From positions 30,001-62,000 of the forward strand of contig JAPZAR010000036.1 in NCBI GenBank assembly GCA_027460535.1: a stretch of DNA of 32,000 nt, written 5' to 3'. The notes under the pieces are model-generated. The model was given only the letters and a program-made list of their open reading frames with translations. It made no database searches and was not told the DNA's origin. A program made the translations under genes and the position numbers. Source of the DNA: Candidatus Methanoperedens sp. (GTDB taxonomy: Archaea > Halobacteriota > Methanosarcinia > Methanosarcinales > Methanoperedenaceae). Positions 1,020-30,869 of this stretch are shown piece by piece (the first letter of the stretch is position 1; each line of letters opens with the position of its first letter).

Positions 1020-1138
1020 AATATCACCCTTATTTACCTGTATTTGATTAAAGTTTAGAGTATATTATTTGCATATAATAATTGTTACCCAGAAACCGGA
1101 ACAAATGGGATTATGTTACGGAAATGGAGTAACAAATT
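1020..1138 (-). promoter_or_regulatory. Conserved promoter cassette, copy a (tandem GTTAC/GTAAC dyads plus a TATA-like box), upstream of gene 1-1019
   Basis: Plus strand reads gttacccagaaaccggaacaaatgggattatgttacggaaatggagtaacaaa. Adjacent sequence is ttgcatataataatt, which is ATTATTATATGCAA on the minus strand. Four other copies exist in the window. Confidence 0.55.
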
Positions 1139-1370
1139 AGTTTCTCCAAAAAAGCGGTATGTATGGGCTTATCATCTGGTCCCGAATTGCCAATTTACTT
1201 TCGTATTTTATTTATTCCTTCAATTCTCTCAAGCCAGGAATTTCCTCTTTTTGATACTATGGTACTTTGCGAAAAGTATTAGAAATTATAAAACATTCAT
1301 CTGCTTGCGAAAATTGCAGATTTTATGAAACCTGACAGAAATGGAAGAATTATTGAAGAAACAGAAGGAT

Positions 1371-3463: not shown

Positions 3464-3516
3464 CTTTATTTCCTATTTGTTTGTCTTATTAATTTTAAGC
3501 CTTCAATTTTATCCAT

Positions 3517-3635
3517 AATATCACCCTTATTTACTTGTATTTGATTAAAGTTTATAGTATATTATTTGCCTATAATAATTGTTACACAGAAACCGGAACA
3601 AATTGGATTTTGTTACGGAAATTGTGTAACAAATC
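3517..3635 (-). promoter_or_regulatory. Conserved promoter cassette, copy b
   Basis: Plus strand reads gttacacagaaaccggaacaaattggattttgttacggaaattgtgtaacaaa, with a TATA-like ataataatt block. It is followed on the minus strand by the conserved ATGGATAAAATTGAAGG. Confidence 0.55.
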
Positions 3636-3975
3636 AGTTTCTCCAAAAAAGCGGTATGTATGGGCTTATCATCTGGTCCCGAATTGCCAATTTACTTTCG
3701 TATTTTATTTATTCCTCCAATTCTCTCAAGCCAGGAATTTCCTCTTTTTGATACTATTGTACATTGCGAAAAGTATTAGAAATTATAAAACATTCATCTG
3801 CTTGTGAAAATTGCAGATTCTATGAAACCTAACAGAAATAGAAGAATAATGAAGAAACAGAAGGATTTACCCCTTTTCGCTTGAACAATTGAACAATCTT
3901 TCTCTAAATTGAATATACCGTACAAGTTCATCCATATCAAAAACTATATGCATTTTCTTCATATAATCTGGCATA

Positions 3976-4281
3976 TCATTTGATATGGGTATAACAATCA
4001 CCATCTTCTGTAAACGTTTTGTTTAACATATCTTCATTACCAAATATCAGTACGGGGAAATACATAACGCAAAATTTTCTCTTCATATCGTGATACATAA
4101 AAGTGTTAGGAAATTGAACCACAAATTTGCATTTCTGGCAGTGAAATATATTGATGCGTCCCTGAAATAGTTCTTCTTTTAATTCTGGATTAAGAGTTAT
4201 ATTCAGGGTATTCCAAATAGTTATGTTTACCTTTTCCCCACATTTGGGGCATTTTAGACCCAGATTTTTAGAGTCGGTCAT
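3976..4281 (-). CDS. CpXC-type zinc-ribbon protein, copy 2, truncated by a frameshift relative to copy 1 (possible pseudogene)
   Basis: The likely start is MTDSKNLGLKCPKCGEK at 4281, and both motifs CPKC and CQKC are intact. One extra A near 3996 (ggtataacaatcacc versus ggtataacatcacc) shifts the frame. The C-terminal ~40 aa seen in copy 1 would continue in another frame to a stop at 3867-3869. Confidence 0.5.
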   Translation of the reverse strand: MTDSKNLGLKCPKCGEKVNITIWNTLNITLNPELKEELFQGRINIFHCQKCKFVVQFPNTFMYHDMKRKFCVMYFPVLIFGNEDMLNKTFTEDGDCYTHIK

Positions 4282-4434
4282 TTTGTTATAAAAGAGAATA
4301 TTTTTCGTATTTATAGATTCGCTAATTTTTTTTTTGCAATTTCCATATGTGCATTCCAGGCATCTAGTTACCTGCAGGCTCTCAGGGAAGCAGGTGAAAA
4401 GCATCACGATAATGCAGGTGGATCCCGGAAATTA

Positions 4435-6069
4435 TCATCCTTTTTTTCTCAATAAATGCGCTATCATGAACAACCCGGCGATTGCAACTATTATTTCAAA
4501 TCCTGGTGTTTTTTGCAACTTCGATGCTTCATCATAGGCTTTAGTTGCTTCATCGTTTCTTCCCAGTTTCCCAAGAGCATCTCCTTTGTTATTCCACGCT
4601 TGAGCATACTGTGGATTAATCTTCAAGGCTTCATCATAGGCTTTAATTGCTTCATCGTTTCTTCCAAGAGTCTCAAGAGCAACTCCTTTGTTATTCCACA
4701 CTTGAGCATACTGTGGATTAATCTTCAATGCTTCATCATAAGCTTTAATTGCTTCATCGTATCTTCCAAGAATGGAAAGAACAAGTCCTTTATCATGCCA
4801 TGCTTCTGCATATTGTGGATTAATCCTTAAGGCCTCATCTAATGCCTTAACTGCATCTTCGTATTTCCCAAGATTAGAAAGAGCGAATCCTTTTTCATAC
4901 CATGTTTGAGCAATTTGTGGATTAATCTTCAAGGCTTCATCATATGTTTTAATTGCATCCTCATTTCTTCCAAGTTTAACAAGAGCCCATCCTTTGTTAT
5001 ACAATGCTGCATCCAATTGTGGATTGATCTTCAAGGCTTCATCATATGCTTTAATTGCATTTTCGTTGTCCCCAATATCGTTAAGAGCATTTCCTTTATT
5101 ATTCCACGCTTCAGCGAGTTGTGGATTAATCTTCAAGGCTTCATCATAGGCTTTAATTGCTTCATCGTATCTTCCAAGATTCTTAAAAGCAATACCTTTG
5201 TTATTCCACGCATCAGCATCCTGTGGATTAATCTTCAAGATTCCATCATAAGCTTTAATTTTGCTATACCATGCTTCAGCAAGTTGTGGATCAATCTTCA
5301 ATGCTTCATCGTAAGCTTTAATTGCATCATCGTATCTTCCAAGAATGTAAAGAGCACTTCCTTTGTTATTCCACACTTGAGCAAACTTTGGATTAATCTT
5401 CAAGGCTTCATCCCATGCTTTAAATGCTTCATCATTTCTCTTCAGATTGATAAGAGAAAATCCTTTTTCATTCCACGATAGAGCATATTGTGGATTAATC
5501 TTCAATGCTTCATCTAATGCTTTGATTGCATCATCGTATCTTCCAAGATTGTTAAGAACAAAACCTTTGTTATACCATGCTTCAGCGAGTTGTGGATCAA
5601 TCTTCAAGGCATCATCATATGCTTTAAATGCTTCATCGTATCTTCCAAGACTGATAAGAACACTTCCTCTGTTATTCCACGCATCAGCATCCTGTGGATT
5701 AATCTTGATTGCTTCATTCAATGCTTTAAATGCTTCATCGTTTCTTCCAAGACTGTAAAGAGCAGTTCCTTTGTTATACCAGGCTTCAGCATATTGTGGA
5801 TCAATCTTCAATGCTTCATCTAATGCTTTGATTGCATCGTCATTTCTTCCAAGGTCAGAAAGAGTTTTTCCTTTTTTATTCCACGCTTTAGCATCCTGTG
5901 GATTAATCTTTAAAGCTTCATCATAGGCTTTGATTGCTTCTGTGTAATTTCCTGCTTGACCCAATTCAATACCTTCAGCAACCCATTCATCAGCAGTTTT
6001 TGCCTCTACTACTTGGGCCATAAATGAAAAGAATATCAAACAAATAATTAAAATATTTATCCCGCTCAT
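4435..6069 (-). CDS. Extracellular TPR-repeat protein (about 15 units) with signal peptide and PGF-CTERM sorting signal
   Basis: A regular 34-aa/102-nt unit recurs: AIKAYDEALKINPQYAQAWNNKGxALxxLGRNDE. The C-terminus TPGFEIIVAIAGLFMIAHLLRKKG matches the PGF-CTERM pattern (PGF, TM helix, basic tail). I prefer the start at 6069 (MSGINILIICLIFFSFMAQVVEA) because AGGAGGTG lies 7 nt upstream. The ORF track start at 6111 lacks this. Confidence 0.8.
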   Translation of the reverse strand: MSGINILIICLIFFSFMAQVVEAKTADEWVAEGIELGQAGNYTEAIKAYDEALKINPQDAKAWNKKGKTLSDLGRNDDAIKALDEALKIDPQYAEAWYNKGTALYSLGRNDEAFKALNEAIKINPQDADAWNNRGSVLISLGRYDEAFKAYDDALKIDPQLAEAWYNKGFVLNNLGRYDDAIKALDEALKINPQYALSWNEKGFSLINLKRNDEAFKAWDEALKINPKFAQVWNNKGSALYILGRYDDAIKAYDEALKIDPQLAEAWYSKIKAYDGILKINPQDADAWNNKGIAFKNLGRYDEAIKAYDEALKINPQLAEAWNNKGNALNDIGDNENAIKAYDEALKINPQLDAALYNKGWALVKLGRNEDAIKTYDEALKINPQIAQTWYEKGFALSNLGKYEDAVKALDEALRINPQYAEAWHDKGLVLSILGRYDEAIKAYDEALKINPQYAQVWNNKGVALETLGRNDEAIKAYDEALKINPQYAQAWNNKGDALGKLGRNDEATKAYDEASKLQKTPGFEIIVAIAGLFMIAHLLRKKG

Positions 6070-6245: not shown

Positions 6246-7370
6246 TTATCTTCCAAGAGCATATGCCGCTCCCTCTCGAACACCTTTGTTTTCATCCTTT
6301 AAATCCTGAACAAGAAGCTCGATGACCCTATCACCCCCTATTTCACCGAGGGCATCAGCCGCTTTCCAATGAATATTTAGAAAGACATTATCCTCATCCT
6401 TCAATGCCTCAATAAGTGGCTCTACTGCTCTTGCATCTCTTATCTTACCAAGTTCATCAGCTGCATTCATTCTGATATTGTAGTCTTTATCCCTCAAGAC
6501 CTTAATAAGTGGCTCTACTGCTCTTGCATCCCTTATCTTGCCAAGTGCATCCGTTGCATTCATTCGAACAGGGAGGTCTTGATCCTTCAATGCCTCGATA
6601 AGTGGCTCTACTTCTTTTACATCTTTTATTTCTCCAAGCTCCTCTGCTGCATTCCTTCGAACATTGTAGTCTTCATCCTTCAAAGCCTCAATAATTGGCC
6701 CAACTTCCATTGGCACCTCACTTACATCTGCAATTAGATGACAAGCGACATCTTTATTCTTGATGAGCATTTTTTGTAATTTCATGATATTTGAGATTAT
6801 TTTCTCTGGTTTTTTCTTTAATACCCCCTCACATATACTGAATGCCAGTTCAAACTGGCACGATCGTCTCAGCAAATCAACAATTATAACTTCTTCTACA
6901 CCATCCTGTTCAGCGAACTTTTGATTATTTTCTTTTGCTTTTCGAAATAAAGACACAGCTCTCATTCTGCATTTCTGTGCACTGGTCTCATAATCAGCAT
7001 CATCGCATACCCATGCCGCATGAACACTACTCCATCCTGCTCCCAAATATTCACAGTTGTTTTCTTGAATTAATGAAAAACAAAGAAATGCATTTGCTAA
7101 TTTGGGATATTCCGGGCTGTCTATTTGTTCTTGGTAAGAATCTGTAAATATAACATCTAACGCTTTTTCATTTCCCTCAGATATGTCCGCGGAAGAATAT
7201 CCGCATGATGGGCACATTTGTACCCACATATCAATAGTTGATCGTTCCATTTCAGGGGGCCTTGTATCTAAATCAGGCGAACCAAAGGTAATTGTAGACC
7301 CAATTTCTTTATGTATGCTTGCCTTATTACATGCATAACATTTCTTGGTTATTGCGTGAAATGTAGTCAT
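6246..7370 (-). CDS. Zinc-ribbon (CxxC...CxxC) N-terminal domain protein with C-terminal HEAT/PBS-lyase-type repeats
   Basis: The N-terminus has CYACNK...CPSCGY. The C-terminus has four to five repeats of the type VRxNAAxALGKIxDARAVEPLIxALKDxD. SD GAGGTGAG lies upstream of the ATG. Confidence 0.7.
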   Translation of the reverse strand: MTTFHAITKKCYACNKASIHKEIGSTITFGSPDLDTRPPEMERSTIDMWVQMCPSCGYSSADISEGNEKALDVIFTDSYQEQIDSPEYPKLANAFLCFSLIQENNCEYLGAGWSSVHAAWVCDDADYETSAQKCRMRAVSLFRKAKENNQKFAEQDGVEEVIIVDLLRRSCQFELAFSICEGVLKKKPEKIISNIMKLQKMLIKNKDVACHLIADVSEVPMEVGPIIEALKDEDYNVRRNAAEELGEIKDVKEVEPLIEALKDQDLPVRMNATDALGKIRDARAVEPLIKVLRDKDYNIRMNAADELGKIRDARAVEPLIEALKDEDNVFLNIHWKAADALGEIGGDRVIELLVQDLKDENKGVREGAAYALGR

Positions 7371-9175: not shown

Positions 9176-9333
9176 GATAAATCACTTCTTATCTAACTTC
9201 ACTATCTGTTTTCCAATTCTTTGATTGAATTTTACAGTAGATTATTTGTATATAATAATTGGTAGTTTATAATATCTGTTACCTGAAAACCGTAATAAAA
9301 GGGGTTTTGTTACGGAAATAGTGTAACAAATCT
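9176..9333 (-). promoter_or_regulatory. Conserved promoter cassette, copy c
   Basis: Plus strand reads gttacctgaaaaccgtaataaaaggggttttgttacggaaatagtgtaacaaa, preceded by ttgtatataataattggtagtttataata. On the minus strand a 22-codon ORF (9175-9107) follows, then genes 9060-7430. Confidence 0.5.
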
Positions 9334-9408
9334 GTTTTTAAATGATTGGGGTCTTCGCGGAATCCTTGTTGAAAAAGGAATAAGACCTTCAATCCTTATC
9401 TTGAATAT

Positions 9409-10029: not shown

Positions 10030-10190
10030 TTTGCCTCCTTATTAAACCATCTACTTGTATTTGATATAATTTTACAGTAGATTAATTGTGGATAAGAATT
10101 AGTTGTTTATAAGATCGGTTACAGAAAACTGGGAACAAATGGGATTTTGTTACGGAAATGGCGTAACAAATCTTTTTAACCTGACTTTAT
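10030..10190 (-). promoter_or_regulatory. Conserved promoter cassette, copy d (best exemplar)
   Basis: Dyad 1 is tttgttacggaaatggcgtaacaaa at 10146-10170. Dyad 2 is gttacagaaaactgggaacaaa at 10118-10139. TATA-like sequences and the SD AAGGAGG lie before the ATG at 10029. Confidence 0.55.
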
Positions 10191-10412: not shown

Positions 10413-12155
10413 ATGGCAGTTAATGCAGCATTAATACTTGTTGTAGGTATCCTAATATTTATTCATGTATATTATTTACGTATAAAAAAAATTGATAGAT
10501 ATGTAATGAAATGTGACCCTTCTATACGTACTCCTGCGGATAGATATAATGATGGGGTGGAATTTTTCCCCACAAATAAAAACGTCCTTTTTGGTTTCCA
10601 GTTCAAAAGCATAGCAGGACTCGCACCTGTCGTGGGCGCTATCGTAGCCGGCTTGCTGTGGGGTTGGCTTCCTGCGCTTATCTGGATACTTGTGGGGAAT
10701 ATTTTTATTGGCTGGGTGCAGGATTATTTTTCATGCATGATGTCAGTCAGGAAGGATGGCAAGAGCTTGGGTCCGCTTTCTTATGAGCTAATAAGCCCGC
10801 GCACACGGAACATCCTTCTGATATTCCTTCTTTTCTACCTGATACTCCTTATGGCAGCTTTTTCAAGTCTGGCAGCAGTGATGCTATCAAAAAATATCAA
10901 CTACATCATACCCACAGCTACAGTACTTTTAGCAGGTGTACTTGTGGGATTGAAGATGTACCGGTTGAAGATGGACCCAATCATAGCAACAAGCGCAGGC
11001 ATAGTATTGATCGTAGGTGGAATATGGGCAGGTTCTTTGAATATGATCCCTAACCCGATTGGCGGAAGATGGGTGATCGATTTCCCATATTTCGGTACCT
11101 GGGGGATCCAAGTTCCGAATATCTGGCTTACAGTTCTACTTGCGATCTGCCTTGTAGCGGCTCTAACTTCCATCTGGAAATTTACCCAGCCCACGATTTA
11201 CATGTTCTTTTATGTAGTGTTGTTCGGAATCATAGCCCTCGCAGCCACTCTCATATTCGGGAATCATGTTTATTTAATGCCTGAATATACAGAATTTTTC
11301 GCTGGAATGTCAGGCACAGCAGCAATGCCGCTATGGCCGCTTCTTTTTGTAACGATCGCCTGCGGCTCTATATCTGGCTGGCACAGCCTTGTGAGCAGTT
11401 CAGCTACCTCTAAGCAAATAGACAAAGAGACAGATGTTGCACCTGTGACTGCGGGCTCCATGCTTGCAGAAGGTATGCTTGCGCTCCTTGCGCTGTCAAT
11501 AGTTGCCACGCTATCAGTTGCGGATACGACTGATGCACATGGAAATCCACTCTCAGCAGCAGACATTTTCTCAAAGGGAGCAGCAAATCTTCTTGGCGGA
11601 AGCGATACTGCGAACGCTTATGTCGGGCTCATATTCGTTGCTCTTGCGCTTGCTGTGATGATTCTTATTGTGCGACTTGGAAGGTTAACAATCCACGAAA
11701 TCGGGGGAGAGAAAATACCACTCCTTAGGAATAAGATAATAGCTTCTGTGCTTTTCCTTGCTGCGACTTTTTTTCTTGCATCTCCCAATTTCGGAGGTAC
11801 ATGGATATATATCTGGGTGCTGTTCGGGGGATCAAACCAGCTCATGGCAGGACTTTCACTCATGATAATTACGTTATGGCTTATTGATACAAAGAAAGGT
11901 TGGATGATATCTGGAATCCCCGGTGTATTCATGATCGTGACATCGATAGCAGCTCTCAGTTATGTAAGCTACCAGTCGCTAACCAGGGGATTTACTTCCC
12001 TTCTGGTCTCTTCCGAAACTTTTGATACACCTTCCGGAAACATTGTTGCAGGTATTATAGGGATAATCTTGATAATCGCAGCTATTATCATGTGCTATGA
12101 TATATTCATGGCATTCAAAAGGAGAAAAGACGGAATTAATTCGGGAATGTCCTGA
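10413..12155 (+). CDS. cstA: Carbon starvation protein A family transporter (CstA/BtsT-type peptide/pyruvate transporter)
   Basis: 580 aa polytopic membrane protein. The N-terminal motif FGFQFKSIAGLAPVVGAIVAGLLWGWLPALIWILVGNIFIGWVQDY resembles the CstA signature (HF.AIAGAGPLVGP...GWLP..LWI..G.V..G.VHD). Confidence 0.8.
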   Translation: MAVNAALILVVGILIFIHVYYLRIKKIDRYVMKCDPSIRTPADRYNDGVEFFPTNKNVLFGFQFKSIAGLAPVVGAIVAGLLWGWLPALIWILVGNIFIGWVQDYFSCMMSVRKDGKSLGPLSYELISPRTRNILLIFLLFYLILLMAAFSSLAAVMLSKNINYIIPTATVLLAGVLVGLKMYRLKMDPIIATSAGIVLIVGGIWAGSLNMIPNPIGGRWVIDFPYFGTWGIQVPNIWLTVLLAICLVAALTSIWKFTQPTIYMFFYVVLFGIIALAATLIFGNHVYLMPEYTEFFAGMSGTAAMPLWPLLFVTIACGSISGWHSLVSSSATSKQIDKETDVAPVTAGSMLAEGMLALLALSIVATLSVADTTDAHGNPLSAADIFSKGAANLLGGSDTANAYVGLIFVALALAVMILIVRLGRLTIHEIGGEKIPLLRNKIIASVLFLAATFFLASPNFGGTWIYIWVLFGGSNQLMAGLSLMIITLWLIDTKKGWMISGIPGVFMIVTSIAALSYVSYQSLTRGFTSLLVSSETFDTPSGNIVAGIIGIILIIAAIIMCYDIFMAFKRRKDGINSGMS

Positions 12156-12300: not shown

Positions 12301-14121
12301 TTACAAATCCCTCACAAGACGAAAGCCGAGAAAGTTGCTGGGGTGGTCAGATTTTTCATGGTTGCGAAGCGCCGACCGGCATCCTCCTGCGCTTCTGTTC
12401 CAGCTACCGCCCCTAATAATCCGATAAGAGCCATCTACACTTTCCCATGAACTTCCATCTGCTGGAGCTCCATTGTAATTTTCATGCCAACTGTCCTGCA
12501 CCCATTCCTGAACATTGCCATGCATGTCATACAAACCCCATGGATTGGGCTTTTTCTGACCAACATCGTGGGTTTTGCCCCCTGAGTTTTCTTCATACCA
12601 TGCATAAATGCCAAGTTTTGATTCATCTTCACCAAATGAATATCGTGTTGTCTTCCCGGCGCGCGCTGCATATTCCCATTCAGCTTCTGAAGGCATGCGG
12701 TACTTGTTTGTACCTTCTTTTTCATTGAGTTTTTTTATAAATTCCTGAACATCTTTCCAGGATACTCTTTCTACAGGCAAGTTTTCGCCCTTGAAATTTG
12801 AAGGATTGTTTTTCATAACTGCTTTCCATTCCTGCTGAGTCACAGGATAGACGCCAAGATAGAACGCCTTGCTTATTGTTATTTTATGAACAGGTTTTTC
12901 CCGATCAGATTCATTCGAACCCATCATGAAATTGCCTGCGGGGATGAGCGCGAACTTCATGCCTTTTATTTCCTGCTGAGCCTTTAGTCTATCTTGCTCT
13001 TCTTTGGCTTTTTTCTCATCATCTTCTTTTTCCTTCTTCTCCTTCTCTTTTATTGATTTGTTTTTTTCTTTATTTTCCGTTTCAACTATTTCAAGGAAAG
13101 GCAGGGCTTCTGTTGTCTGCTCTTTATCAGCGAAATATGAGCTATTTTTTTTTGCCCAATCTACATGTTTATCCACATCTTGATTTGTTACTGTACCATT
13201 TATACTCGCTAAAGCTTTTTTGAAATCTGAATTATTTAGCGACCTTATTATAGGAGAAATTGGATCTATAATTCCTTTATTTAGTTCATTCCACATGTTC
13301 CAGTGCGCTTCCGTGCAAAGTGTTGCGATATCGCGTCCTGAAAATAATTTCGAGACACAGCTTTTCGCTATCTCCTGCATATCCCCGTCGAACTCTAAAT
13401 CATGTTTATGTATATACAGTTTAATCATTTTCATAACAGCCTGCGGATCAGGCAGAGGGATGTAAATTCGCTTTTGGAACCGGCTGAGCACTGCAGAGTC
13501 AATATCCCATGGAGTATTGGTTGCGCCCATTGTCACAATATGCCGGCTTGAATTCTTATTATGCAATCCATCCATTTCTGAAAGCAATGTGGACAATATT
13601 CTTATCGAAGCTTCAGATTTCTCAGTATTACGGATACTCACAATAGAATCGATTTCGTCCAGAAAAATGATAGACGGGGCTCTTTTCCATGCACAATCAT
13701 ATAAAGCAGAGATGATCTTTGAAGACTCACCGAAATATTTTGATAATATATCGCTTATTTTTACATTAAAAAAAGTAGCTTTAAAAGAGCCGGCAGTTGC
13801 CGCAGCAAGCATTGTCTTACCAGTTCCGGGAGGTCCAAAAAGAAGAATGCCTTTCCATGGGTCAGGTCTTCCCTTAATTTTACTAAAAGTAACGGACTCA
13901 TTGATAGCTTTCTTAGCATTATCAATACCTGCAATATCTTCCCAGGTTACTTTGGTTGAGGTTATCATAACCTTAATTCTTTCATCACAATCCCCTTCTC
14001 TTATTGCAGTATCATTATCTCCAGCTTCACGAGCCGTCCCTGCAGGGTTATTTTGCTTTGTGTACTTTTTCTTTATCGCTTCTAATTCATCAGATAAATC
14101 CTTTAAATCATCTGGGTTCAT
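12301..14121 (-). CDS. Fusion protein: Vps4/katanin-like AAA+ ATPase, Lys/Glu-rich linker, and FGE/SUMF1 (formylglycine-generating-enzyme-like) domain
   Basis: Walker A is GPPGTGKT and Walker B is IIFLDEIDS. GATNTPWDIDSAVLSRFQKRIYIPLPD is typical of the Vps4/spastin clade. The linker is KEKEKKEKEDDEKKAKEEQD. The C-terminal domain reads PVHKITISKAFYLGVYPVTQQEW...VSWKDVQEF...YRMPSEAEWEYAARAG...GLYDMHGNVQEWVQD...RGGSWN...GFRLVRDL. A strong SD, GGAGGGGG, is present. Confidence 0.8.
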   Translation of the reverse strand: MNPDDLKDLSDELEAIKKKYTKQNNPAGTAREAGDNDTAIREGDCDERIKVMITSTKVTWEDIAGIDNAKKAINESVTFSKIKGRPDPWKGILLFGPPGTGKTMLAAATAGSFKATFFNVKISDILSKYFGESSKIISALYDCAWKRAPSIIFLDEIDSIVSIRNTEKSEASIRILSTLLSEMDGLHNKNSSRHIVTMGATNTPWDIDSAVLSRFQKRIYIPLPDPQAVMKMIKLYIHKHDLEFDGDMQEIAKSCVSKLFSGRDIATLCTEAHWNMWNELNKGIIDPISPIIRSLNNSDFKKALASINGTVTNQDVDKHVDWAKKNSSYFADKEQTTEALPFLEIVETENKEKNKSIKEKEKKEKEDDEKKAKEEQDRLKAQQEIKGMKFALIPAGNFMMGSNESDREKPVHKITISKAFYLGVYPVTQQEWKAVMKNNPSNFKGENLPVERVSWKDVQEFIKKLNEKEGTNKYRMPSEAEWEYAARAGKTTRYSFGEDESKLGIYAWYEENSGGKTHDVGQKKPNPWGLYDMHGNVQEWVQDSWHENYNGAPADGSSWESVDGSYRIIRGGSWNRSAGGCRSALRNHEKSDHPSNFLGFRLVRDL

Positions 14122-14627
14122 GTTCCCCCTCCGCTATCATTTTTCATTTTGCTTTTTGAGAATATCTTTCATCCATTTGCCAAAGCCCACAATCACATCC
14201 ATTTAATTTAGTCTATTGATAGATAGGAAAGAAACTTTATTTATAAATAAGCTAATTTTTATTATATTATCCACATTTCTTAAATTCATAGGCACTGCTA
14301 TGTATCTATGATCAGCATATATAATAAACTTCAGCACATCAGTCTGAAAATAAAGAAAAAAGATGGAGATTTTGGTTGGGTAAACTGATAAAAAAGGATA
14401 TAGTTCAAGCTACCTGTTTAGATCAAATACAGCACCCCGCGAATTGCAGTCAATTAAATTGGGTTTCTACTGTATCTCGATAGTTATTACTTGCTGCTTG
14501 TAAAGTTGGTAGATATGATTTGATAAGAGCACCAAGTGCTTTCAGGCGATTATGTGTTTGAGTATTTATACAACATTTTCATCGTTTTGAGCTTTGGATA
14601 AGATATATTTTTGAATCTCGGGATGTT

Positions 14628-14798
14628 TTATGTTTTTGCCCGCGGCTCAACTAACTTCTTGATGTCAAAAAGCGATATGTGATATTCGTTAGATACATCA
14701 AGTTCTGCTTTTATCAAGGCGTCTTGCTCGTCCACACCGCTATTCATGATTGCTTTCTTTCTCTTTAAGATAGCGTTTAGTACTTCGAATATATCCAT
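14628..14798 (-). CDS. Hypothetical 56-aa helical protein
   Basis: Manual translation gives MDIFEVLNAILKRKKAIMNSGVDEQDALIKAELDVSNEYHISLFDIKKLVEPRAKT. A strong SD, AGGAGG, lies 8 nt upstream. It sits 17 nt downstream of the zinc-finger ORF. Confidence 0.45.
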   Translation of the reverse strand: MDIFEVLNAILKRKKAIMNSGVDEQDALIKAELDVSNEYHISLFDIKKLVEPRAKT

Positions 14799-14815
14799 TG
14801 TTACTCGCCTCCTTT

Positions 14816-14953
14816 TTATTTGCTTTTTTGAACAAATTCATGCTCATCTCTCATGTGGCTAAACACGGAATCCATTGAAGCGAACTCCTTTTTGCAGAAA
14901 GTGCAGACATAAACTCTTGGCCAATCTTCTTCAATACCTCTATAGTTTTTCAT
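14816..14953 (-). CDS. 45-aa stand-alone C2H2 zinc-finger micro-protein
   Basis: Manual translation gives MKNYRGIEEDWPRVYVCTFCKKEFASMDSVFSHMRDEHEFVQKSK. This is an exact C-X2-C-X12-H-X4-H spacing. Confidence 0.5.
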   Translation of the reverse strand: MKNYRGIEEDWPRVYVCTFCKKEFASMDSVFSHMRDEHEFVQKSK

Positions 14954-15115: not shown

Positions 15116-15268
15116 ATTATCACCCTTATTTACTTTATTGACTGAATTTTACAATAGATTATTTGTATATAATAATTGGTAGTCTATAATATTTGTTACC
15201 TGAAAATCGGAACAAATTGGGTTTTGTTCCGGAAATGTCGTAACAAATCTTTTTAACCTGACTTTATA
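15116..15268 (-). promoter_or_regulatory. Conserved promoter cassette, copy e
   Basis: Plus strand reads gttacctgaaaatcggaacaaattgggttttgttccggaaatgtcgtaacaaa, with ttgtatataataattggtagtctataata. The distal flank aacaaatctttttaacctgactttat is shared with copy d. Confidence 0.5.
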
Positions 15269-15405: not shown

Positions 15406-15999
15406 ATGGACTCTGAATTGATCGATGAATGGGAAAAGATCGTAGGACATGATAGGATGAAAATGATCTCAAACAAATATTTTAACAGCAGGTTCGATTT
15501 AGAGTTCCCTGATCTCCAGGAGGGCAATTTTAAACATAAAAAATTGAGCATACATTCTGAACTCGAAAATAATGCAAATATGCTAAAAGAATTTGAAAAA
15601 AATGGTTTATTGACCCATAATGAAGTTTCAAGAATGATTGATGTATCAACCCGGAATATTATAAATAAGAGCATGCCTGGTGCGATTTTTGAGAATGTCC
15701 GCAAAACGTTAGATGATGAAATATTGAGAACTATTAAGATTGGGCTGATAGAAATTGAACGAAAAGGTTTACTGACCCACGATGAAGTCTCAAGAATTAT
15801 TAAAGTATTATCCTGGAATCTTGCAGATGAGAGCATGCCTGGTGCTCTTTTTGAGTATGTCCGCATTCTACTGGATAATGAGAGATTTAAGGATCAGGGA
15901 GAGACCAAGCGTCTTGAATTGGTGATCAGGTACATCAGAGAGAGTCTGGTCATTGAGGAGGAAAAACTTGTCAATGAGGAGGAAAAAAGGTTAGAGTAG
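15406..15999 (+). CDS. Hypothetical acidic protein with two ~55-aa internal repeats
   Basis: The repeats are KNGLLTHNEVSRMIDVSTRNIINKSMPGAIFENVRKTLDDE and KGLLTHDEVSRIIKVLSWNLADESMPGALFEYVRILLDNE, with a 165-nt period. I prefer it over the antisense ORF 15342-15866, which is low-complexity. Confidence 0.5.
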   Translation: MDSELIDEWEKIVGHDRMKMISNKYFNSRFDLEFPDLQEGNFKHKKLSIHSELENNANMLKEFEKNGLLTHNEVSRMIDVSTRNIINKSMPGAIFENVRKTLDDEILRTIKIGLIEIERKGLLTHDEVSRIIKVLSWNLADESMPGALFEYVRILLDNERFKDQGETKRLELVIRYIRESLVIEEEKLVNEEEKRLE

Positions 16000-16569
16000 T
16001 TATTTTCGAATCAATTTTATGTTGAAACTGCAATTGGCGTGATCTCCTTTTTCAAATTGGTCAACACTCCCAAATCGTTTTACTATGTTTTTGATCACAG
16101 GTTCGCAGGTGATCTCACAATTTTTCTTCTCACACGGAGTTCTTTTTTCTATGTCCATGTTGATCCTGATCCCTTCCTTGATTTTTCTTGCATTATGATT
16201 TACTTTGAAATCAGCTTCTAGACAATAATTTAAAATATATCCAATCCCATCCCCGAAATCCCTGATCTTTTCAGGAACTTTTCCTTTGATTGAATCCAGC
16301 TTATCACTAATGTCCAGAATTTCGCTCCCGAAAGGAGATATCACATATATTGAGTGTGGTTCGACGATAATGGCTTCGCTTTCAAACTTAATAACCAGAC
16401 GAGATGAAACAAGGTCTGTAAGCGCCTCTGAGATTCTTTCTTTGCTGATATCCAGATCATCTGATAGATCGCGGACCCGACAGGATTTCATGCAAAGCTT
16501 TTCTAAAATGTCTACTCTGCTATTCCTGCTGAGTTTTTTGGAGAGGTCTATCAGGGATTCGGTGGACAT
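16000..16569 (-). CDS. Putative winged-helix (ArsR/MarR-like) transcriptional regulator with a Cys-containing C-terminal domain
   Basis: The N-terminal region RVDILEKLCMKSCRVRDLSDDLDISKERISEALTDLVSSRLV looks like a wHTH. The stop codon abuts the stop of the convergent gene at 15999. Confidence 0.5.
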   Translation of the reverse strand: MSTESLIDLSKKLSRNSRVDILEKLCMKSCRVRDLSDDLDISKERISEALTDLVSSRLVIKFESEAIIVEPHSIYVISPFGSEILDISDKLDSIKGKVPEKIRDFGDGIGYILNYCLEADFKVNHNARKIKEGIRINMDIEKRTPCEKKNCEITCEPVIKNIVKRFGSVDQFEKGDHANCSFNIKLIRK

Positions 16570-20164: not shown

Positions 20165-20264
20165 TACAGGTTTTTCCATTATCCAAAGTGCGCTGAATTT
20201 TGGGATTTGGAAAGTTGTGCAGGCTGCCTATAGTCTTTTATGAGCATGAAAACTAATTGCCTTC

Positions 20265-20318
20265 AGTCACAGATCGCCGGAATGAATTCCGAACGCATCG
20301 GGTGAGGATGCTCGATGG
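20265..20318. repeat. Dispersed ~53-nt repeat, copy B
   Basis: agtcacagatcgccggaatgaattccgaacgcatcgggtgaggatgctcgatgg. It contains the palindrome CGGAATgaATTCCG and the hairpin GCATCgggtgagGATGC. Weaker similarity extends about 20 nt upstream (agcatgaaaa...). Confidence 0.7.
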
Positions 20319-22216: not shown

Positions 22217-23587
22217 ATGAAATATTTAGTCCGGTTGCTAGCAGTACTGGCAATCTTATTGTTGGCAGGAAGCGCAGGCGCGGCGCCGTTTGCATATATC
22301 ACGAACCTTGGCGGCCACAGTGTCTCTGTGATTGACATAGCAACGAACACTGTTACAGCCACCATGACTGTAGGACCCAGTCCTTATGGAGTTGCAGTCA
22401 ACCCGGCGGGAACAAAGGTATATGTGACGAACGAAAACGACCACAATGTCTCTGTGATTGATACTGCCACGAACACTGTTACAGCAACCGTGAATGTAGG
22501 AAGCACTCCTTGGGGAGTTGCAGTCAACCCGGCGGGAACAAAGGTATACGTGGCGAACTATAACAGCAACAGCGTCTCTGTGATTGATACAGGCACGAAC
22601 ACTGTTACAGCCACCGTGCCTGTAGGAAGCGGTCCTTATGGAGTTGCAGTCAACCCGGCGGGAACAAAGGTATACGTGGCGAACTATAACAGCAACAGCG
22701 TCTCTGTTATTGATACAGGCACGAACACTGTTACAGCCACCGTGCCTGTAGGAAGCGGTCCTTATGGAGTTGCAGTCAACCCGGCGGGAACAAAGGTATA
22801 CGTGACGAACAATAACAACAACAGCGTCTCTGTGATTGACATAGGCACGAACACTGTTACAGCCACCGTAAATGTAGGAAGCTATCCTTCTGGAGTTGCA
22901 GTAAACCCGGCTGGAACAAAGGTATACGTGACGAACGAATTTAGCAACAACGTATCTGTTATTGACACAGCCACGAACGCTGTTACAGCAACCGTGAAAG
23001 TAGGAAGCTATCCTGTTGGAGTCGCAGTAAACCCGGCGGGAACAAAGGTATACGTGGCGAACTATTTCAACAACAATGTCTCCGTTATTGATACTGCCAC
23101 GAACACTGTCACAGCCAGCGTGAATGTAGGAGGACAGCCTATTGCTTTCGGTCAGTTTATAGGTCCTGAGGCAGGCTCGACTGTGGGCTACAGCGCCACT
23201 GTCGTAGGCGGACAGAACACTTATGTCCAGGCATCCAACGGCAACTTTGGCACAATACTTGCAGGACAGAGCAAAATAATCAATAACTCTGTTACCCTGA
23301 ACAACACGGGCGATGCGACCGCCACCGTTGATGCAAGGTTGAGTGACAATGCTGGCGGTGTGTATGGACTTGTAAGTGGAAGCAACGTTCTCGGAGGTTC
23401 TAACTTTTCCCTTGCAATCACCAATACTGGAAACTGGACATCATTAAATGATGCCGGGACGAATGCCAGGGTTGCAACTGCGCCTGGCTTTGGCGCTTTA
23501 ACAATACTTAACGCAAGACTCTTCGTGCCTCAAATGCAGCCGGGAGGAGCGTACAGCGGAACCGTGATTCTGACCTTTGGAAATTAG
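22217..23587 (+). CDS. Secreted 7-blade YVTN beta-propeller protein with an unassigned ~140-aa C-terminal beta-rich module
   Basis: The signal peptide is MKYLVRLLAVLAILLLAGSAGA. Seven 42-aa repeats follow: VYV(T/A)Nxxxx(N/S)VSVIDTATNTVTATVxVGSxPxGVAVNPAGTK. The C-terminal module starts GSTVGYSATVVGGQNTYVQ and ends AYSGTVILTFGN. SD AGGAGGT is present. Confidence 0.85.
   Translation: MKYLVRLLAVLAILLLAGSAGAAPFAYITNLGGHSVSVIDIATNTVTATMTVGPSPYGVAVNPAGTKVYVTNENDHNVSVIDTATNTVTATVNVGSTPWGVAVNPAGTKVYVANYNSNSVSVIDTGTNTVTATVPVGSGPYGVAVNPAGTKVYVANYNSNSVSVIDTGTNTVTATVPVGSGPYGVAVNPAGTKVYVTNNNNNSVSVIDIGTNTVTATVNVGSYPSGVAVNPAGTKVYVTNEFSNNVSVIDTATNAVTATVKVGSYPVGVAVNPAGTKVYVANYFNNNVSVIDTATNTVTASVNVGGQPIAFGQFIGPEAGSTVGYSATVVGGQNTYVQASNGNFGTILAGQSKIINNSVTLNNTGDATATVDARLSDNAGGVYGLVSGSNVLGGSNFSLAITNTGNWTSLNDAGTNARVATAPGFGALTILNARLFVPQMQPGGAYSGTVILTFGN
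22283..23167. repeat. 126-nt coding tandem repeat array (7 YVTN blades); units 22541-22666 and 22667-22792 differ at 1 nt
   Basis: Direct reading shows the two adjacent units are identical except gtgattgat versus gttattgat. Confidence 0.85.
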
Positions 23588-30777: not shown

Positions 30778-30869
30778 ACTTATTGGATAAAGGTTATATA
30801 TCTTGTGATAAGGGAATATACAAAATATTAAAAAGTACGAAAAGTACGATCGAAATATAGAGGGATTTT

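What the first reader, a model, noticed from the sequence alone, without database searches (positions are those of the whole stretch)
12301..14121. Cytoplasmic Vps4-like AAA+ ATPase fused to an FGE/SUMF1-like domain that lacks one catalytic cysteine
The N-terminal half is a complete AAA+ module of the Vps4/katanin/spastin type. It has GPPGTGKT, IIFLDEIDS, SRFQKRIYIPLPD and a Vps4_C-like tail, but no MIT domain. A highly charged K/E linker connects it to a full FGE-sulfatase fold.

In canonical FGEs two cysteines near RGGS(F/Y)xC....C.RYR form the active site. Here the region reads RGGSWNRSAGGCRSALRN, so only the second Cys is present. This argues for a binding or sensing role rather than formylglycine generation.

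No signal peptide is present. FGE-like domains have been proposed as ligand-sensing modules in NTPase-based prokaryotic conflict systems. A fusion to an unfoldase-type AAA+ would fit that logic, but I have not seen it described.

Upstream on the same strand lie two micro-ORFs: a C2H2 zinc finger and a 56-aa helical protein.
Basis: partly seen in the sequence, partly recalled or inferred. Interest (0 to 1): 0.65.

Follow-up and report, generated by a model that had tools for sequence, protein, structure and literature searches.

The report
Vps4-like ATPase with lectin-fold tail
An archaeal (Methanoperedens-type) gene really does fuse a Vps4/katanin-type protein-remodelling ATPase to a non-enzymatic, lectin-like "FGE-fold" binding domain; it is a rare new variant of the known "NTPase plus FGE-fold sensor" design, not a new kind of system.

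Summary
ORF 12301-14121 (-) encodes one 606-aa protein. It has an intact meiotic-clade AAA+ module with a Vps4_C helix and no MIT domain, a ~45-residue charged helical linker, and a C-terminal FGE-sulfatase-fold domain.

- **Real fusion.** The identical protein occurs on 7 contigs from 6 samples. A 70-73% identical syntenic ortholog (P0002) is also fused, through a different linker.
- **Not a formylglycine-generating enzyme.** The FGE domain holds a single Cys (C581, aligned to human C341), and Arg576 replaces C336. Its nearest solved relatives are PvdO and the DGR variable protein TvpA. No sulfatase gene lies nearby.
- **Loss of that Cys is normal.** It is typical of this TvpA-like subfamily. 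Such "FGS" domains are already described as C-terminal sensors on STAND, MoxR-vWA, GTPase, TIR and caspase proteins.
- **What is new.** The NTPase partner is new: a Methanoperedens-lineage clade of Vps4-like ATPases. This clade lost the MIT-like N-terminus and a conserved 202-aa neighbour, and gained swappable C-terminal binding modules (FGE or HEAT).
- **Sister clade.** In the sister clade (AAA-DisA_N), FGE-domain proteins are encoded in the same operon.

The most likely function is an ATP-driven remodeller targeted by the FGE-fold domain. An immune role is plausible but unproven. The upstream micro-ORFs are independent genes.

Verdict: new variant of a known kind, moderate interest.

The parts
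12301..14121 (-). Whole AAA+-linker-FGE-fold gene (606 aa plus stop)
   Evidence: Single ORF. The identical product is on 7 contigs from 6 samples. A fused ortholog, P0002, exists.
14125..14132 (-). Ribosome-binding site GGAGGGGG, ending 3 nt before the ATG (spacer AAC)
   Evidence: Read directly from the sequence.
13972..14121 (-). N-terminal stub (residues 1-50): one or two helices, the remnant of the MIT-like region that clade-A relatives keep
   Evidence: There is a ~73-column gap relative to P0025. Helices 3-23 and 26-32 appear in the model. Pfam gives no MIT hit. P0025's N-terminus gives a weak KATNA1_MIT hit, E 0.0036.
13138..13971 (-). Meiotic-clade AAA+ ATPase module (residues 51-328): Walker A GPPGTGKT, pore loop 1 SKYFGES, Walker B IIFLDEID, SRH VLSRF
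   Evidence: Pfam AAA 1.3e-37. Motif census. pLDDT ~90. Foldseek top hits are FIGL-1, katanin, Vps4 and spastin, TMt 0.75-0.86.
13150..13242 (-). Vps4_C-type C-terminal helix (residues 294-324)
   Evidence: Pfam Vps4_C scores 22.8 bits against a 21.3 cut-off. Katanin, CdvC, Vps4, fidgetin-like and spastin chains align through it.
12958..13116 (-). Charged K/E-rich linker (residues 336-388), predicted as a single long helix
   Evidence: 62% EKDRQ. Helix 341-383 in the AlphaFold2 model, at low pLDDT. Similar charged linkers precede the FGE domain in 19 of 98 relatives.
12310..12951 (-). FGE-sulfatase-fold (C-type-lectin-like, 'FGS') domain, residues 391-604, of the TvpA/PvdO type
   Evidence: Pfam 2.8e-51. 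PDB: PvdO 2.2e-35 and TvpA 1.1e-33, against ~1e-11 for true FGEs. Foldseek gives the same order on a low-confidence model.
12328..12411 (-). Active-site / variable-region equivalent (residues 571-598): GGS573-W-N-R576-S-A-G-G-C581-RSALR plus the following loop. It contains the two hypervariable patches 575-580 and 586-598.
   Evidence: Alignment to human SUMF1. Entropy profile over 97 relatives. The hFGE triad lies in the DGR VR segment (PMC6328139).
14628..14798 (-). orf56, a conserved 56-aa helical micro-protein in a separate transcription unit; not an obligate partner
   Evidence: 87-91% identical copies lie upstream of AAA-HEAT genes in L010 and L097. It is absent from L001 and L008. It is found upstream of rpl3 in L098 and of an HTH gene in L100. 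A 506-bp gap with oligo-T runs separates it from the AAA gene.
14816..14953 (-). 45-aa C2H2 zinc-finger micro-protein, translationally coupled to orf56
   Evidence: Pfam zf-C2H2 family hits around E 3e-5, all below the gathering scores. Copies 80-89% identical lie next to orf56 in L010, L097, L098 and L104.
15406..16569 (.). Conserved flanking pair: orf197 (15406-15999, +; internal 54-aa repeat) and an ArsR-type HTH protein (16000-16569, -). The pair marks the locus in all relatives.
   Evidence: tblastn synteny across L001, L008, L010, L011, L095 and L105. HTH_5 Pfam hit.
10413..12155 (+). CstA transporter gene, convergent with the AAA-FGE gene; a synteny marker shared with the P0002 locus
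   Evidence: Pfam CstA 6.4e-99. 84% identical, in the same convergent position, in L001.

Best explanation
The gene encodes a cytoplasmic, catalytically competent Vps4/katanin-type (meiotic-clade) AAA+ protein-remodelling ATPase. Its target recognition has moved from the N-terminus to the C-terminus.

It belongs to a Methanoperedens-lineage clade ('clade B') derived from the ordinary ~400-aa euryarchaeal Vps4-like ATPase. Clade B has lost ~70 residues of the MIT-like N-terminal region and also the conserved 202-aa neighbour gene. In their place it carries a C-terminal binding module on a long charged helix. Here that module is a non-enzymatic, TvpA/PvdO-type FGE-fold (C-type-lectin-like, 'FGS') domain; in sister genes it is HEAT repeats.

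Inferred mechanism: the protein forms a hexameric ring. Six FGS domains on ~45-residue helical arms bind a specific macromolecular ligand through the loops flanking the conserved C-R-S-A-x-R motif. The bound target is then handed to, or switches on, the pore-loop-driven ATPase for unfolding or disassembly.

The same FGS cassette, 60-75% identical and often with the same charged linker, sits behind TIR, caspase and kinase domains in ANME and Methanoperedens proteins. It varies mainly in those loops. The most likely biological setting is therefore non-self or stress sensing, with the AAA+ ring as the output. That last step is the least certain.

Shown: the architecture, the intact ATPase motifs, the non-FGE nature of the domain, the clade relationships, the synteny and the module swapping. 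Inferred: hexamer formation, ligand binding by the FGS domain, delivery to the pore, and the immune role.
For: - **Architecture and genuineness:**
- **ATPase competence:** Walker A, pore loop 1 and Walker B are intact. The single-Arg VLSRF motif is the norm for the whole euryarchaeal clade, in 111 of 138 sequences.
- **Meiotic-clade identity:** CdvC is the best NCBIfam hit. Katanin, CdvC, Vps4 and spastin align through the C-terminal helix. The Foldseek top 30 are FIGL-1, katanin, Vps4, spastin and Msp1.
- **Non-catalytic FGE fold:** there is one Cys only, with R576 at the C336 position. The nearest solved relatives are PvdO and TvpA. No sulfatase gene is nearby.
- **Binding-site signature:** across 97 relatives the scaffold is conserved (mean 1.14 bits). 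Entropy peaks at residues 575-580 and 586-598. These fall in the segment that holds the hFGE triad and the DGR variable region (PMC6328139).
- **Cassette behaviour:** the FGE domain is C-terminal in 85 of 98 relatives, and 19 of 98 have a charged linker. N-terminal partners include TIR (about 40 of the 120 top hits), caspase, kinase and zinc ribbon. This matches the 'always C-terminal' FGS syntax of PMC7159879.
- **Retargeting story:** the NJ tree separates long-N-terminus clade A (standalone and DisA_N) from short-N-terminus clade B (FGE and HEAT). The 202-aa partner sits next to clade-A genes in L011, L093, L095 and L105. It is absent from every clade-B locus searched for it (window, L001, L008, L010, L097).
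- **Module swapping:** at syntenic loci the C-terminal module is FGE, HEAT, or an ISAzo13 truncation.
- **Independent AAA-FGE link:** in 3 genomes the clade-A AAA-DisA_N gene is followed by FGE-sulfatase-bearing membrane proteins. One of those FGE domains is 69.5% identical to the window's.
Against: - No biochemical data exist for any member.
- No recognised defence gene, effector-associated domain, reverse transcriptase or template repeat is in the window or in related loci. PADLOC gives only generic AAA/IetA, TPR and HEAT similarity.
- The locus is stably syntenic with housekeeping-type genes such as CstA and an ArsR-type regulator.
- The FGE domains of the two orthologs are 86% identical. 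That is higher than their AAA halves (73%), and the putative ligand loops are nearly the same. This points to a conserved, possibly endogenous ligand and not an arms race.
- The FGE domains encoded next to clade-A genes sit behind a TM helix and are probably extracellular, so the two situations may not be mechanistically equivalent.
- Both AlphaFold2 models are poor for the FGE half (pLDDT <50). No structural statement about the ligand site or about domain docking is possible.
- The tree is a single NJ tree without support values.
Confidence: 0.5

Rival explanations
1. Housekeeping or envelope-homeostasis remodeller. The FGE-fold domain binds an endogenous client, for example a glycosylated or envelope-destined protein or a cytoplasmic precursor. 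The AAA+ ring remodels or extracts that client as part of normal physiology or stress response, related to the clade-A system that couples a Vps4-like ATPase, a diadenylate cyclase domain and membrane proteins carrying FGE domains.
For: - There is stable chromosomal synteny with CstA and the HTH189/orf197 pair in two species.
- The FGE domain, including the variable-loop region, is 86% conserved between the orthologs.
- The protein is identical in 6 samples.
- There are no defence neighbours.
- The clade-A operon [202-208 aa]-[AAA-DisA_N]-[ABC2_membrane_3-like/FGE membrane protein] is conserved in 3-4 genomes.
- According to PMC8970359, euryarchaeal CdvC homologs are thought to have roles outside cell division.
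Against: - The closest FGE-domain relatives are overwhelmingly fused to TIR, caspase and kinase domains that are typical of conflict systems.
- Module swapping (FGE, HEAT, IS truncation) at one locus among close relatives is unusual for a housekeeping gene.
- The architecture is very rare: 2-3 clusters.
Confidence: 0.3
2. The FGE-fold domain is an enzyme with another chemistry, for example a PvdO-like oxidative maturation step or a thiol-dependent reaction using the conserved Cys581. The AAA+ module would unfold or present its protein substrate.
For: - PvdO is the best solved and NCBIfam relative.
- Cys581 and Ser573, the equivalents of hFGE C341 and S333, are retained. Cys581 is at least 90% conserved in the family.
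Against: - The positions around the would-be active site are the most variable in the family. That is the signature of a binding surface, not a catalytic pocket.
- According to PMC5758913, TvpA, an equally close relative, has no FGE activity and is thought to have a binding role instead.
- The PvdO model score of 152 bits is far below its 500-bit cut-off.
Confidence: 0.08
3. It is an ordinary formylglycine-generating enzyme (sulfatase maturase) that happens to be fused to a chaperone.
For: The Pfam family name FGE-sulfatase; Ser333 and Cys341 equivalents are present.
Against: - Only one Cys exists in the domain, so the Cys336/Cys341 pair cannot form.
- True FGEs are about 24 orders of magnitude weaker hits than PvdO and TvpA.
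- There is no sulfatase gene in 32 kb or in any related locus.
- From established knowledge, aerobic FGEs need O2 and Cu(I), and the relatives are anaerobic methanotrophs (inference).
Confidence: 0.01
4. Assembly or annotation artefact, or a decaying chimera: two genes joined by a frameshift or a recent non-functional fusion.
For: The low-complexity K/E linker is the sort of place where assemblies err. The sister locus P0018 shows that rearrangement (an IS insertion) does happen here.
Against: - The protein is identical on 7 contigs from 6 samples and two assemblers.
- The ortholog is fused through a non-repetitive linker.
- All catalytic and fold motifs are intact in both orthologs at 70-86% identity.
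Confidence: 0.02

Closest known systems
NTPase-FGS (FGE-fold / C-type-lectin) sensor proteins of prokaryotic conflict systems (Kaur, Burroughs, Iyer & Aravind 2020/2021; STAND-FGE sensors in the 2026 STAND survey; DGR targets)
   Same: The FGE-fold domain is at the extreme C-terminus, behind an NTPase. It is non-catalytic and varies in the loops equivalent to the DGR variable region. The same cassette is shared with TIR, caspase and kinase proteins.
   Different: The NTPase is a classical meiotic-clade (Vps4/katanin-like) AAA+ with a translocating pore loop. It is not a STAND, MoxR-vWA or GTPase switch. There is no DGR, no effector-associated adaptor domain and no linked effector gene. The host is archaeal.
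Vps4 / CdvC and the ~400-aa euryarchaeal Vps4-like ATPases
   Same: A single AAA+ module with Walker A/B, a K-[YW]-x-G-E pore loop and the Vps4_C C-terminal helix. The best NCBIfam model is CdvC, and the best structural matches are FIGL-1, katanin, Vps4 and spastin. It is 46-55% identical to the standalone euryarchaeal proteins.
   Different: No MIT domain, with the N-terminal region about 70 aa shorter. There is no ESCRT-III/Snf7 gene and no 202-aa partner gene nearby. There is no beta-domain insert and only one SRH arginine. It carries an extra C-terminal FGE-fold domain. The CdvC model score of 195 bits is far below the 650-bit cut-off.
TvpA (Treponema denticola DGR variable protein, PDB 2Y3C) and PvdO (PDB 5HHA)
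   Same: These are the closest solved relatives of the C-terminal domain (E 1e-33 and 2e-35). They share the GGSW...C/x...R motif region, and neither is an FGE (PMC5758913).
   Different: Both are single-domain extracytoplasmic proteins. TvpA is diversified by a DGR. Here the domain is cytoplasmic, fused to an ATPase, and there is no DGR in the window.
AAA-HEAT proteins of Methanoperedens (e.g. P0021, P0023, P0048) - sister subclade
   Same: They have the same short-N-terminus AAA cassette (58-63% identity) and the same locus, flanked by HTH189/orf197 and often by zf-C2H2/orf56. They follow the same logic of a C-terminal binding module.
   Different: The C-terminal module is an alpha-solenoid (HEAT repeats) instead of the FGE-fold lectin-like domain.
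IetA/IteA anti-phage AAA+ ATPase (IetAS system)
   Same: It is the best PADLOC hit (8e-30) and an NCBIfam hit, and it is a classical AAA+ ATPase.
   Different: The similarity is generic to the AAA core: 96.6 bits against a 510-bit cut-off. There is no IetS protease partner and the domain architecture differs.

Membership tests
Formylglycine-generating enzyme (SUMF1/FGE, sulfatase maturase) | FGE-sulfatase (PF03781) fold | tested here: met
   Pfam E 2.8e-51, covering 6-255 of 255 profile positions.
Formylglycine-generating enzyme (SUMF1/FGE, sulfatase maturase) | Catalytic cysteine pair (human C336 and C341), which binds Cu(I) | tested here: not met
   C581 is the only Cys in the domain. It aligns to C341, and R576 occupies the C336 position.
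Formylglycine-generating enzyme (SUMF1/FGE, sulfatase maturase) | Closer to characterised FGEs than to non-FGE paralogs | tested here: not met
   PvdO 2.2e-35 and TvpA 1.1e-33, against 2e-11 to 4e-10 for human, Streptomyces and Thermomonospora FGEs. Foldseek gives the same order.
Formylglycine-generating enzyme (SUMF1/FGE, sulfatase maturase) | Genomic association with sulfatase (PF00884) substrates | tested here: not met
   No sulfatase was found among the window ORFs scanned or among the genes called in related loci.
Vps4 / CdvC (meiotic-clade AAA+) | Single AAA+ module with Walker A/B and an aromatic pore loop 1 | tested here: met
   GPPGTGKT, IIFLDEID and SKYFGES are present. Pfam AAA 1.3e-37.
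Vps4 / CdvC (meiotic-clade AAA+) | C-terminal helix (Vps4_C) after the small subdomain | tested here: met
   PF09336 scores 22.8 bits, above the 21.3 cut-off. Katanin, CdvC, Vps4 and spastin align to residue ~325.
Vps4 / CdvC (meiotic-clade AAA+) | N-terminal MIT domain | tested here: not met
   There is no MIT hit. Only ~50 residues precede the AAA module, and there is a ~73-column gap relative to P0025, whose N-terminus gives a weak KATNA1_MIT hit.
Vps4 / CdvC (meiotic-clade AAA+) | ESCRT-III (CdvB/Snf7) substrate gene in the neighbourhood or genome | tested here: not met
   There is no Snf7 hit in the window. The 202-aa partner of clade-A relatives is absent from the window, and that partner itself shows no ESCRT-III/PspA similarity. 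The rest of the genome could not be examined.
Vps4 / CdvC (meiotic-clade AAA+) | Reaches the curated CdvC equivalog score | tested here: not met
   NF041006 scores 194.9 bits against a 650-bit cut-off.
NTPase-FGS conflict-system sensors (Kaur et al.) | FGS domain at the C-terminus with all other domains N-terminal | tested here: met
   The FGE domain ends 2 residues before the stop codon. It is C-terminal in 85 of 98 relatives. The syntax is described in PMC7159879.
NTPase-FGS conflict-system sensors (Kaur et al.) | NTPase of STAND, MoxR(+vWA) or GTPase type | tested here: not met
   The NTPase is a classical meiotic-clade AAA+. There is no vWA or MoxR gene in the window.
NTPase-FGS conflict-system sensors (Kaur et al.) | Association with a DGR (reverse transcriptase, template repeat) | tested here: not met
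   There is no repeat of the gene's 3' end and no RT in the 32-kb window. The protein is identical in 6 samples. A remote DGR cannot be excluded.
NTPase-FGS conflict-system sensors (Kaur et al.) | Linked effector or adaptor (EAD, TIR, caspase, etc.) genes, or location in a defence island | tested here: not met
   PADLOC finds only generic AAA, TPR and HEAT similarity.
NTPase-FGS conflict-system sensors (Kaur et al.) | Diversification concentrated in the ligand-binding (VR-equivalent) loops | tested here: met
   Entropy peaks at residues 575-580 and 586-598 on a conserved scaffold, across 97 relatives. However, the two AAA-FGE orthologs are nearly identical in those loops.
IetA/IteA anti-phage ATPase | Reaches the curated family score and has an IetS protease partner | tested here: not met
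   NF042959 scores 96.6 bits against a 510-bit cut-off. No protease gene is adjacent.

The most novel reading that the evidence does not exclude
Clade B is a previously unrecognised archaeal immune or quality-control effector class. It would be a Vps4-derived unfoldase that gave up its MIT/202-aa-partner interaction. It is now aimed by interchangeable C-terminal recognition modules (FGE-fold lectin or HEAT solenoid) at invader-derived proteins or assemblies, for example virus or Borg/ECE structural proteins, and it mechanically dismantles them. In that reading the output of an FGS sensor is ATP-driven unfolding of the recognised molecule itself, and not cell suicide through TIR or caspase.
Probability: 0.15. 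Interest if true: 0.8.

Novelty: new variant of a known kind. Interest (0 to 1): 0.45.

Why it matters
FGE-fold ("FGS") domains are emerging as intracellular pattern-recognition modules in prokaryotic immunity, but none has been shown to feed a mechanical unfoldase. If the FGS domain here recruits targets to a Vps4-type ring, that would add a new output to this sensor class: direct ATP-driven dismantling of the recognised molecule.

It would also give a clean natural example of how an AAA+ machine is retargeted. The N-terminal MIT-like domain and its partner gene are lost, and C-terminal recognition modules that can be swapped (FGE or HEAT) are gained.

The finding also draws attention to an uncharacterised, conserved gene pair in methane-cycling archaea (a 202-aa protein plus a Vps4-like ATPase, sometimes fused to a diadenylate cyclase). 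That bears on the open question of what Vps4/CdvC homologs do in FtsZ-dividing Euryarchaeota.

If the function turns out to be housekeeping, the finding is a modest annotation correction: "FGE family protein" here does not mean sulfatase maturation.

Tried and rejected
1. **True FGE.** Rejected: one Cys only, PvdO and TvpA are nearest, and there is no sulfatase gene.
2. **Frameshift or assembly chimera.** Rejected.
3. **Local DGR target.** No template repeat or RT in the window.
4. **Micro-ORFs as functional partners.** They recur upstream of AAA-HEAT genes. However, they are missing from the P0002 and P0018 loci. Elsewhere they precede rpl3-rpl4-rpl23 or an HTH gene. A 506-bp gap with oligo-T runs separates them from the AAA gene. 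Treated as an independent gene pair.
5. **The 202-aa clade-A partner as ESCRT-III/Snf7/PspA.** No support from Pfam, NCBIfam, PDB phmmer or a 19-sequence profile against the PDB. Left open.
6. **Exhaustive search for more AAA+FGE fusions.**
   - The representative search was swamped by tandem-FGE giants. Only P0002 appeared at 448 bits or above.
   - Distant fusions therefore cannot be excluded.
   - The fragment P0269 (297 aa, cut by the contig end) groups with the FGE subclade and may be a third member.
7. **Structure of the FGE half.** Two AlphaFold2 runs gave pLDDT below 50 for its C-terminal part. They were used only as a sanity check.
8. **IetA/IteA defence ATPase membership.** The similarity is generic to the AAA core only.
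9. **Extra AAA genes near clade-A loci** (AAA312 in L095; AAA356 plus a Ricin-B lectin gene in L105). These belong to a different RPGRF-type family at ~33% identity and are not relevant.
10. **The window's own HEAT-repeat gene (6246-7370).** Only ~30% identical to the HEAT modules of AAA-HEAT proteins, which is generic repeat similarity.
11. **Paul et al. 2017** (AAA-CLec DGR targets in CPR bacteria) could not be read.

Full report
**1.

- The minus-strand ORF 12301-14121 is uninterrupted and encodes 606 aa. A strong Shine-Dalgarno-like GGAGGGGG ends 3 nt before the ATG.
- Pfam finds AAA (92-223, E 1.3e-37), Vps4_C (294-324, 22.8 bits against a 21.3 cut-off) and FGE-sulfatase (391-604, E 2.8e-51). 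There is no MIT hit.
- The region between the two halves (about 336-388) is 62% E/K/D/R/Q. AlphaFold2 models it as one long helix, 341-383, at low confidence.
- No 19-residue window exceeds a Kyte-Doolittle mean of 1.0 and the N-terminus is hydrophilic. The protein therefore has no signal-peptide-like start or TM segment. As a positive control, a related 704-aa FGE protein scores 2.72 at its TM helix.
- The fusion is not a sequencing artefact.
  - The identical 606-aa product is called on 7 contigs from 6 samples in ENA and Logan assemblies.
  - A second protein, P0002 (636 aa), is 73% identical in the AAA half and ~70% over the rest. Its FGE domain alone is 86% identical.
  - P0002 is also fused, through a different, non-repetitive linker. 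It lies in the same position, convergent with an 84%-identical CstA gene.

**2. The AAA+ half**

- All catalytic elements are intact: Walker A GPPGTGKT, pore loop 1 SKYFGES and Walker B IIFLDEID. The second region of homology reads VLSRF, with a single arginine.
- That single arginine is the norm for the entire euryarchaeal clade, in 111 of 138 sequences. It is not a lesion of this protein.
- The best NCBIfam model is CdvC, at 195 bits, far below the 650-bit equivalog cut-off.
- Among single-module PDB chains, katanin, CdvC/Vps4, fidgetin-like 1 and spastin align all the way through the C-terminal helix.
- The confidently modelled AAA part (pLDDT about 90) finds FIGL-1, katanin, Vps4, spastin and archaeal Vps4 as its nearest structures. 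Target-normalised TM is 0.75-0.86 and rmsd 2.5-3 Å.
- "Vps4/katanin/spastin-type, no MIT" is therefore correct.
- The closest sequence relatives are ~400-aa standalone ATPases of Methanosarcinales (about 55% identity), Thermococci and Methanococci (45-50%). The literature regards these euryarchaeal CdvC homologs as having unknown, non-division roles (PMC8970359).

**3. The FGE-like half**

- I wrote a human SUMF1 C-terminal fragment from memory and verified it against PDB chains. It has one mismatch, outside the motif.
- In the BLASTP alignment the stretch GGS-W-N-R-S-A-G-G-C aligns without gaps to GGS-Y-M-C-H-R-S-Y-C. This gives S573 = S333, R576 = C336 and C581 = C341.
- C581 is the only cysteine in the whole domain, so the Cu-binding Cys pair cannot exist.
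- This is not a peculiarity of this protein.
  - The nearest solved relatives are PvdO (2e-35) and the Treponema DGR variable protein TvpA (1e-33), followed by ToxD and PorK/GldK.
  - Bona fide FGEs score only about 1e-11. Foldseek on a low-confidence model gives the same order.
- Across 97 close relatives the scaffold is highly conserved, with mean column entropy 1.14 bits.
- Two patches are hypervariable: residues 575-580 and 586-598. They flank the conserved C581-R-S-A-x-R586 motif.
- This is the segment that carries the hFGE Ser-Cys-Cys triad and the variable region of DGR-diversified FGE-type C-type-lectin-fold proteins (PMC6328139). TvpA has no FGE activity and is thought to be a binding protein (PMC5758913).
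- No sulfatase gene occurs in the window or in any related locus.
- From established knowledge, aerobic FGEs need O2 and Cu(I). The relatives named by sources are Methanoperedens, ANME-1 and Methanosarcinales, which are anaerobes. The window itself carries YcaO-TfuA and FtsZ. The organism assignment is an inference.

**4. How the pieces move**

- The FGE cassette is C-terminal in 85 of 98 relatives. In 19 of 98 it is preceded by a similarly charged linker.
- Its N-terminal partners among the top 120 hits include TIR domains (about 40 proteins), a caspase, protein kinases and zinc ribbons.
- This matches the "FGS always C-terminal" syntax and the sensor role proposed by Kaur et al. (PMC7159879, PMC8195603). 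It also matches the FGE-type sensors on STAND NTPases (PMC13581612).
[quoted passage not shown] According to Wu et al. those NTPases are P-loop NTPase/AAA_16/midasin-type (PMC5758913). I could not read the primary paper.
- No paper in the searchable library combines FGE-sulfatase with Vps4, or Methanoperedens with formylglycine.

**5. The AAA cassette has a history that explains the architecture**

- *Tree.* An NJ tree of AAA cores, indicative only and without support values, shows two sister clades.
  - Clade A has a long N-terminus, with Walker A at residue ~162-188. It is either standalone (~408 aa) or fused to a DisA_N diadenylate-cyclase domain.
  - Clade B has a short N-terminus, with Walker A at ~64-97, and always carries a C-terminal module. 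An FGE subclade (window protein, P0002 and the contig-truncated fragment P0269) is sister to a HEAT-repeat subclade.
- *N-terminus.* Relative to P0025 the window protein lacks ~73 alignment columns of the N-terminal region. That region gives a weak katanin-MIT hit in P0025 (E 0.0036, below the cut-off).
- *Synteny.* All of these genes sit next to the same ArsR-type HTH (189 aa) and orf197 pair.
- *The 202-aa partner.* Clade-A genes are immediately preceded by a conserved 202-208-aa coiled-coil protein in L011, L093, L095 and L105.
  - This family has 93 members, all in Methanosarcinales, ANME-1 or Methanoperedens-type sources, and no annotation.
  - The gene is absent from the window and from the other clade-B loci searched for it: L001, L008, L010 and L097.
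  - Loss of the MIT-like region and loss of this neighbour therefore go together.
  - I tested whether the 202-aa protein is ESCRT-III/PspA-like and found no support.
- *Module swapping.* At the syntenic clade-B locus the C-terminal module differs between relatives.
  - It is FGE in the window and L001, and HEAT in L010 and L097.
  - The "AAA-only" P0018 is followed directly by an ISAzo13 transposase N-terminus (NF033519, 2.3e-11) and nests inside the HEAT subclade. It is a truncation.
- *Operon link.* In three genomes the clade-A AAA-DisA_N gene is followed in the same orientation by FGE-sulfatase-bearing membrane proteins.
  - One of those FGE domains is 69.5% identical to the window's.
  - This is an independent gene-neighbourhood link between this ATPase family and FGE-fold domains.
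  - In at least one of those proteins, however, the domain follows a TM helix and is probably extracellular.

**6. Surroundings**

- The two micro-ORFs are real genes. They are 80-91% identical across loci whose AAA genes are ~60% identical.
- They form a tightly coupled pair and are separated from the AAA-FGE gene by 506 bp containing oligo-T runs. A TATA-like A/T box lies ~110 nt upstream of the AAA-FGE start.
- They are absent from the P0002 and P0018 loci. In other contigs they precede the rpl3-rpl4-rpl23 operon or an HTH gene. I do not treat them as partners.
- The window has no DGR template repeat or reverse transcriptase. PADLOC finds nothing beyond generic AAA/IetA, TPR and HEAT similarity.

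**7. Interpretation**

- Best-supported reading (confidence about 0.5): a Vps4-type AAA+ remodeller has had its target recognition moved from an N-terminal MIT-like domain with a 202-aa partner to a C-terminal, non-catalytic FGE-fold binding domain on a helical spacer.
- Hexamer formation, ligand capture by the variable loops and hand-over to the pore are inferred from family knowledge. They are not shown.
- The immune context is suggested by two things: the company the FGE cassette keeps (TIR, caspase, kinase) and module swapping at the locus.
- Several observations weaken it: no defence neighbours, stable synteny, and near-identical putative ligand loops in the two orthologs. These fit a conserved, possibly endogenous ligand, which is the housekeeping or envelope-related rival (about 0.3).
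- An alternative enzymatic role for the domain is unlikely (about 0.08). True FGE activity and an artefact are effectively excluded.

**8. Novelty and score**

- The general design, an NTPase followed by a C-terminal FGE-fold sensor, is known. The loss of the catalytic Cys is routine for this branch of the family.
- Three things are new.
  - The NTPase type is new: a pore-loop unfoldase of the Vps4 lineage, where known examples use a STAND, MoxR or GTPase switch.
  - The setting is archaeal.
  - The evolutionary context is new: MIT-like domain and partner loss, followed by FGE/HEAT module swapping.
- The architecture is rare. Only P0002, and possibly the fragment P0269, share it among close relatives, in searches of 5.8 billion clusters and 1.84 billion representatives. 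More distant fusions could have been missed.
- I rate it a new variant of a known kind, interest 0.45.

Noticed in passing
L011 5303-9922; L093 259-7623; L095 4297-10774 (related loci, not the window): A conserved operon in Methanoperedens-type genomes: an unannotated 203-208-aa coiled-coil protein, then a Vps4-like AAA fused to a DisA_N diadenylate cyclase, then an ABC2_membrane_3-like membrane protein that either carries or is followed by an FGE-sulfatase domain. A Vps4-like ATPase fused to a c-di-AMP synthase is itself unusual.
   Followed up: partly
L105 4302-6227; protein family P0385-P0477: A tight family of 93 unannotated 202-aa proteins (Methanosarcinales, ANME-1, Methanoperedens). Members lie directly upstream of the standalone or DisA_N-fused Vps4-like ATPase in the four loci examined, and contig lengths suggest more shared contigs. 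The N-terminus is basic and the C-terminus acidic. There is no Pfam, NCBIfam or PDB similarity, even with a profile. It may be the native partner of euryarchaeal Vps4-like ATPases.
   Followed up: partly
window 14628-14953 (-); L010, L097, L098, L104: A zf-C2H2 (45 aa) plus orf56 micro-gene pair is conserved at 80-91% identity. That is more conserved than the neighbouring large genes. In L098 it sits upstream of the ribosomal L3/L4/L23 operon. It looks like a small regulatory module of unknown function.
   Followed up: partly
window 1027-1156, 3524-3653, 9221-9350, 10061-10190, 15138-15267: Five copies of a ~130-nt intergenic repeat, 60-82% identical to the reference copy. One copy lies just upstream of the zf-C2H2/orf56 pair. 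It could be a MITE or a shared promoter or regulatory element.
   Followed up: no
window 20249-20315 and 28553-28619: A 67-nt repeat (85% identical) containing the palindrome CCGGAATGAATTCCG. It has no Rfam match at gathering threshold.
   Followed up: no
window 996-1936 vs 3493-4436: A segmental duplication of about 0.95 kb, 89-99% identical. It includes two copies of a CpXC-domain gene (1371-1754 and 3976-4407).
   Followed up: no
window 22217-23587 and 23730-25100: Two tandem 456-aa paralogs built from 126-nt (42-aa) repeats, of the NHL/YncE-like beta-propeller type. They are followed by a CARDB-domain protein (25983-26843).
   Followed up: no
P0002 residues ~262-346 (locus L001): The AAA-FGE ortholog carries an insert of ~85-90 aa (SWGEIPGNDSLRLIDFLKQKF...KLNIYF) in the small AAA subdomain. 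From memory, eukaryotic Vps4 has its beta-domain at about this position. The insert is absent from the window protein.
   Followed up: no
L008 7078-7317: An ISAzo13-family transposase gene starts 52 nt after the stop codon of the 341-aa 'AAA-only' protein P0018. This probably explains the loss of P0018's C-terminal HEAT module.
   Followed up: yes
window 15406-16569: orf197 contains an internal 54-aa direct repeat (15582-15725 / 15744-15887). It is always paired tail-to-tail with an ArsR-type HTH protein (the two genes abut at their stop codons). The pair flanks every Vps4-like ATPase locus examined, in either orientation.
   Followed up: partly
L105 1-3105: A different classical AAA+ gene (RPGRF type, ~33% identical to the window's AAA) overlaps by 20 nt a 709-aa protein with two Ricin-B lectin domains. 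This is another ATPase-plus-lectin pairing in the same genome region.
   Followed up: partly
window 28883-31847: TfuA (28883-29530) and YcaO (29527-30777) lie next to an FtsZ gene (30870-31847). From established knowledge, this pair thioamidates McrA in methanogens and ANME. That is consistent with a methane-cycling euryarchaeon as the source.
   Followed up: no
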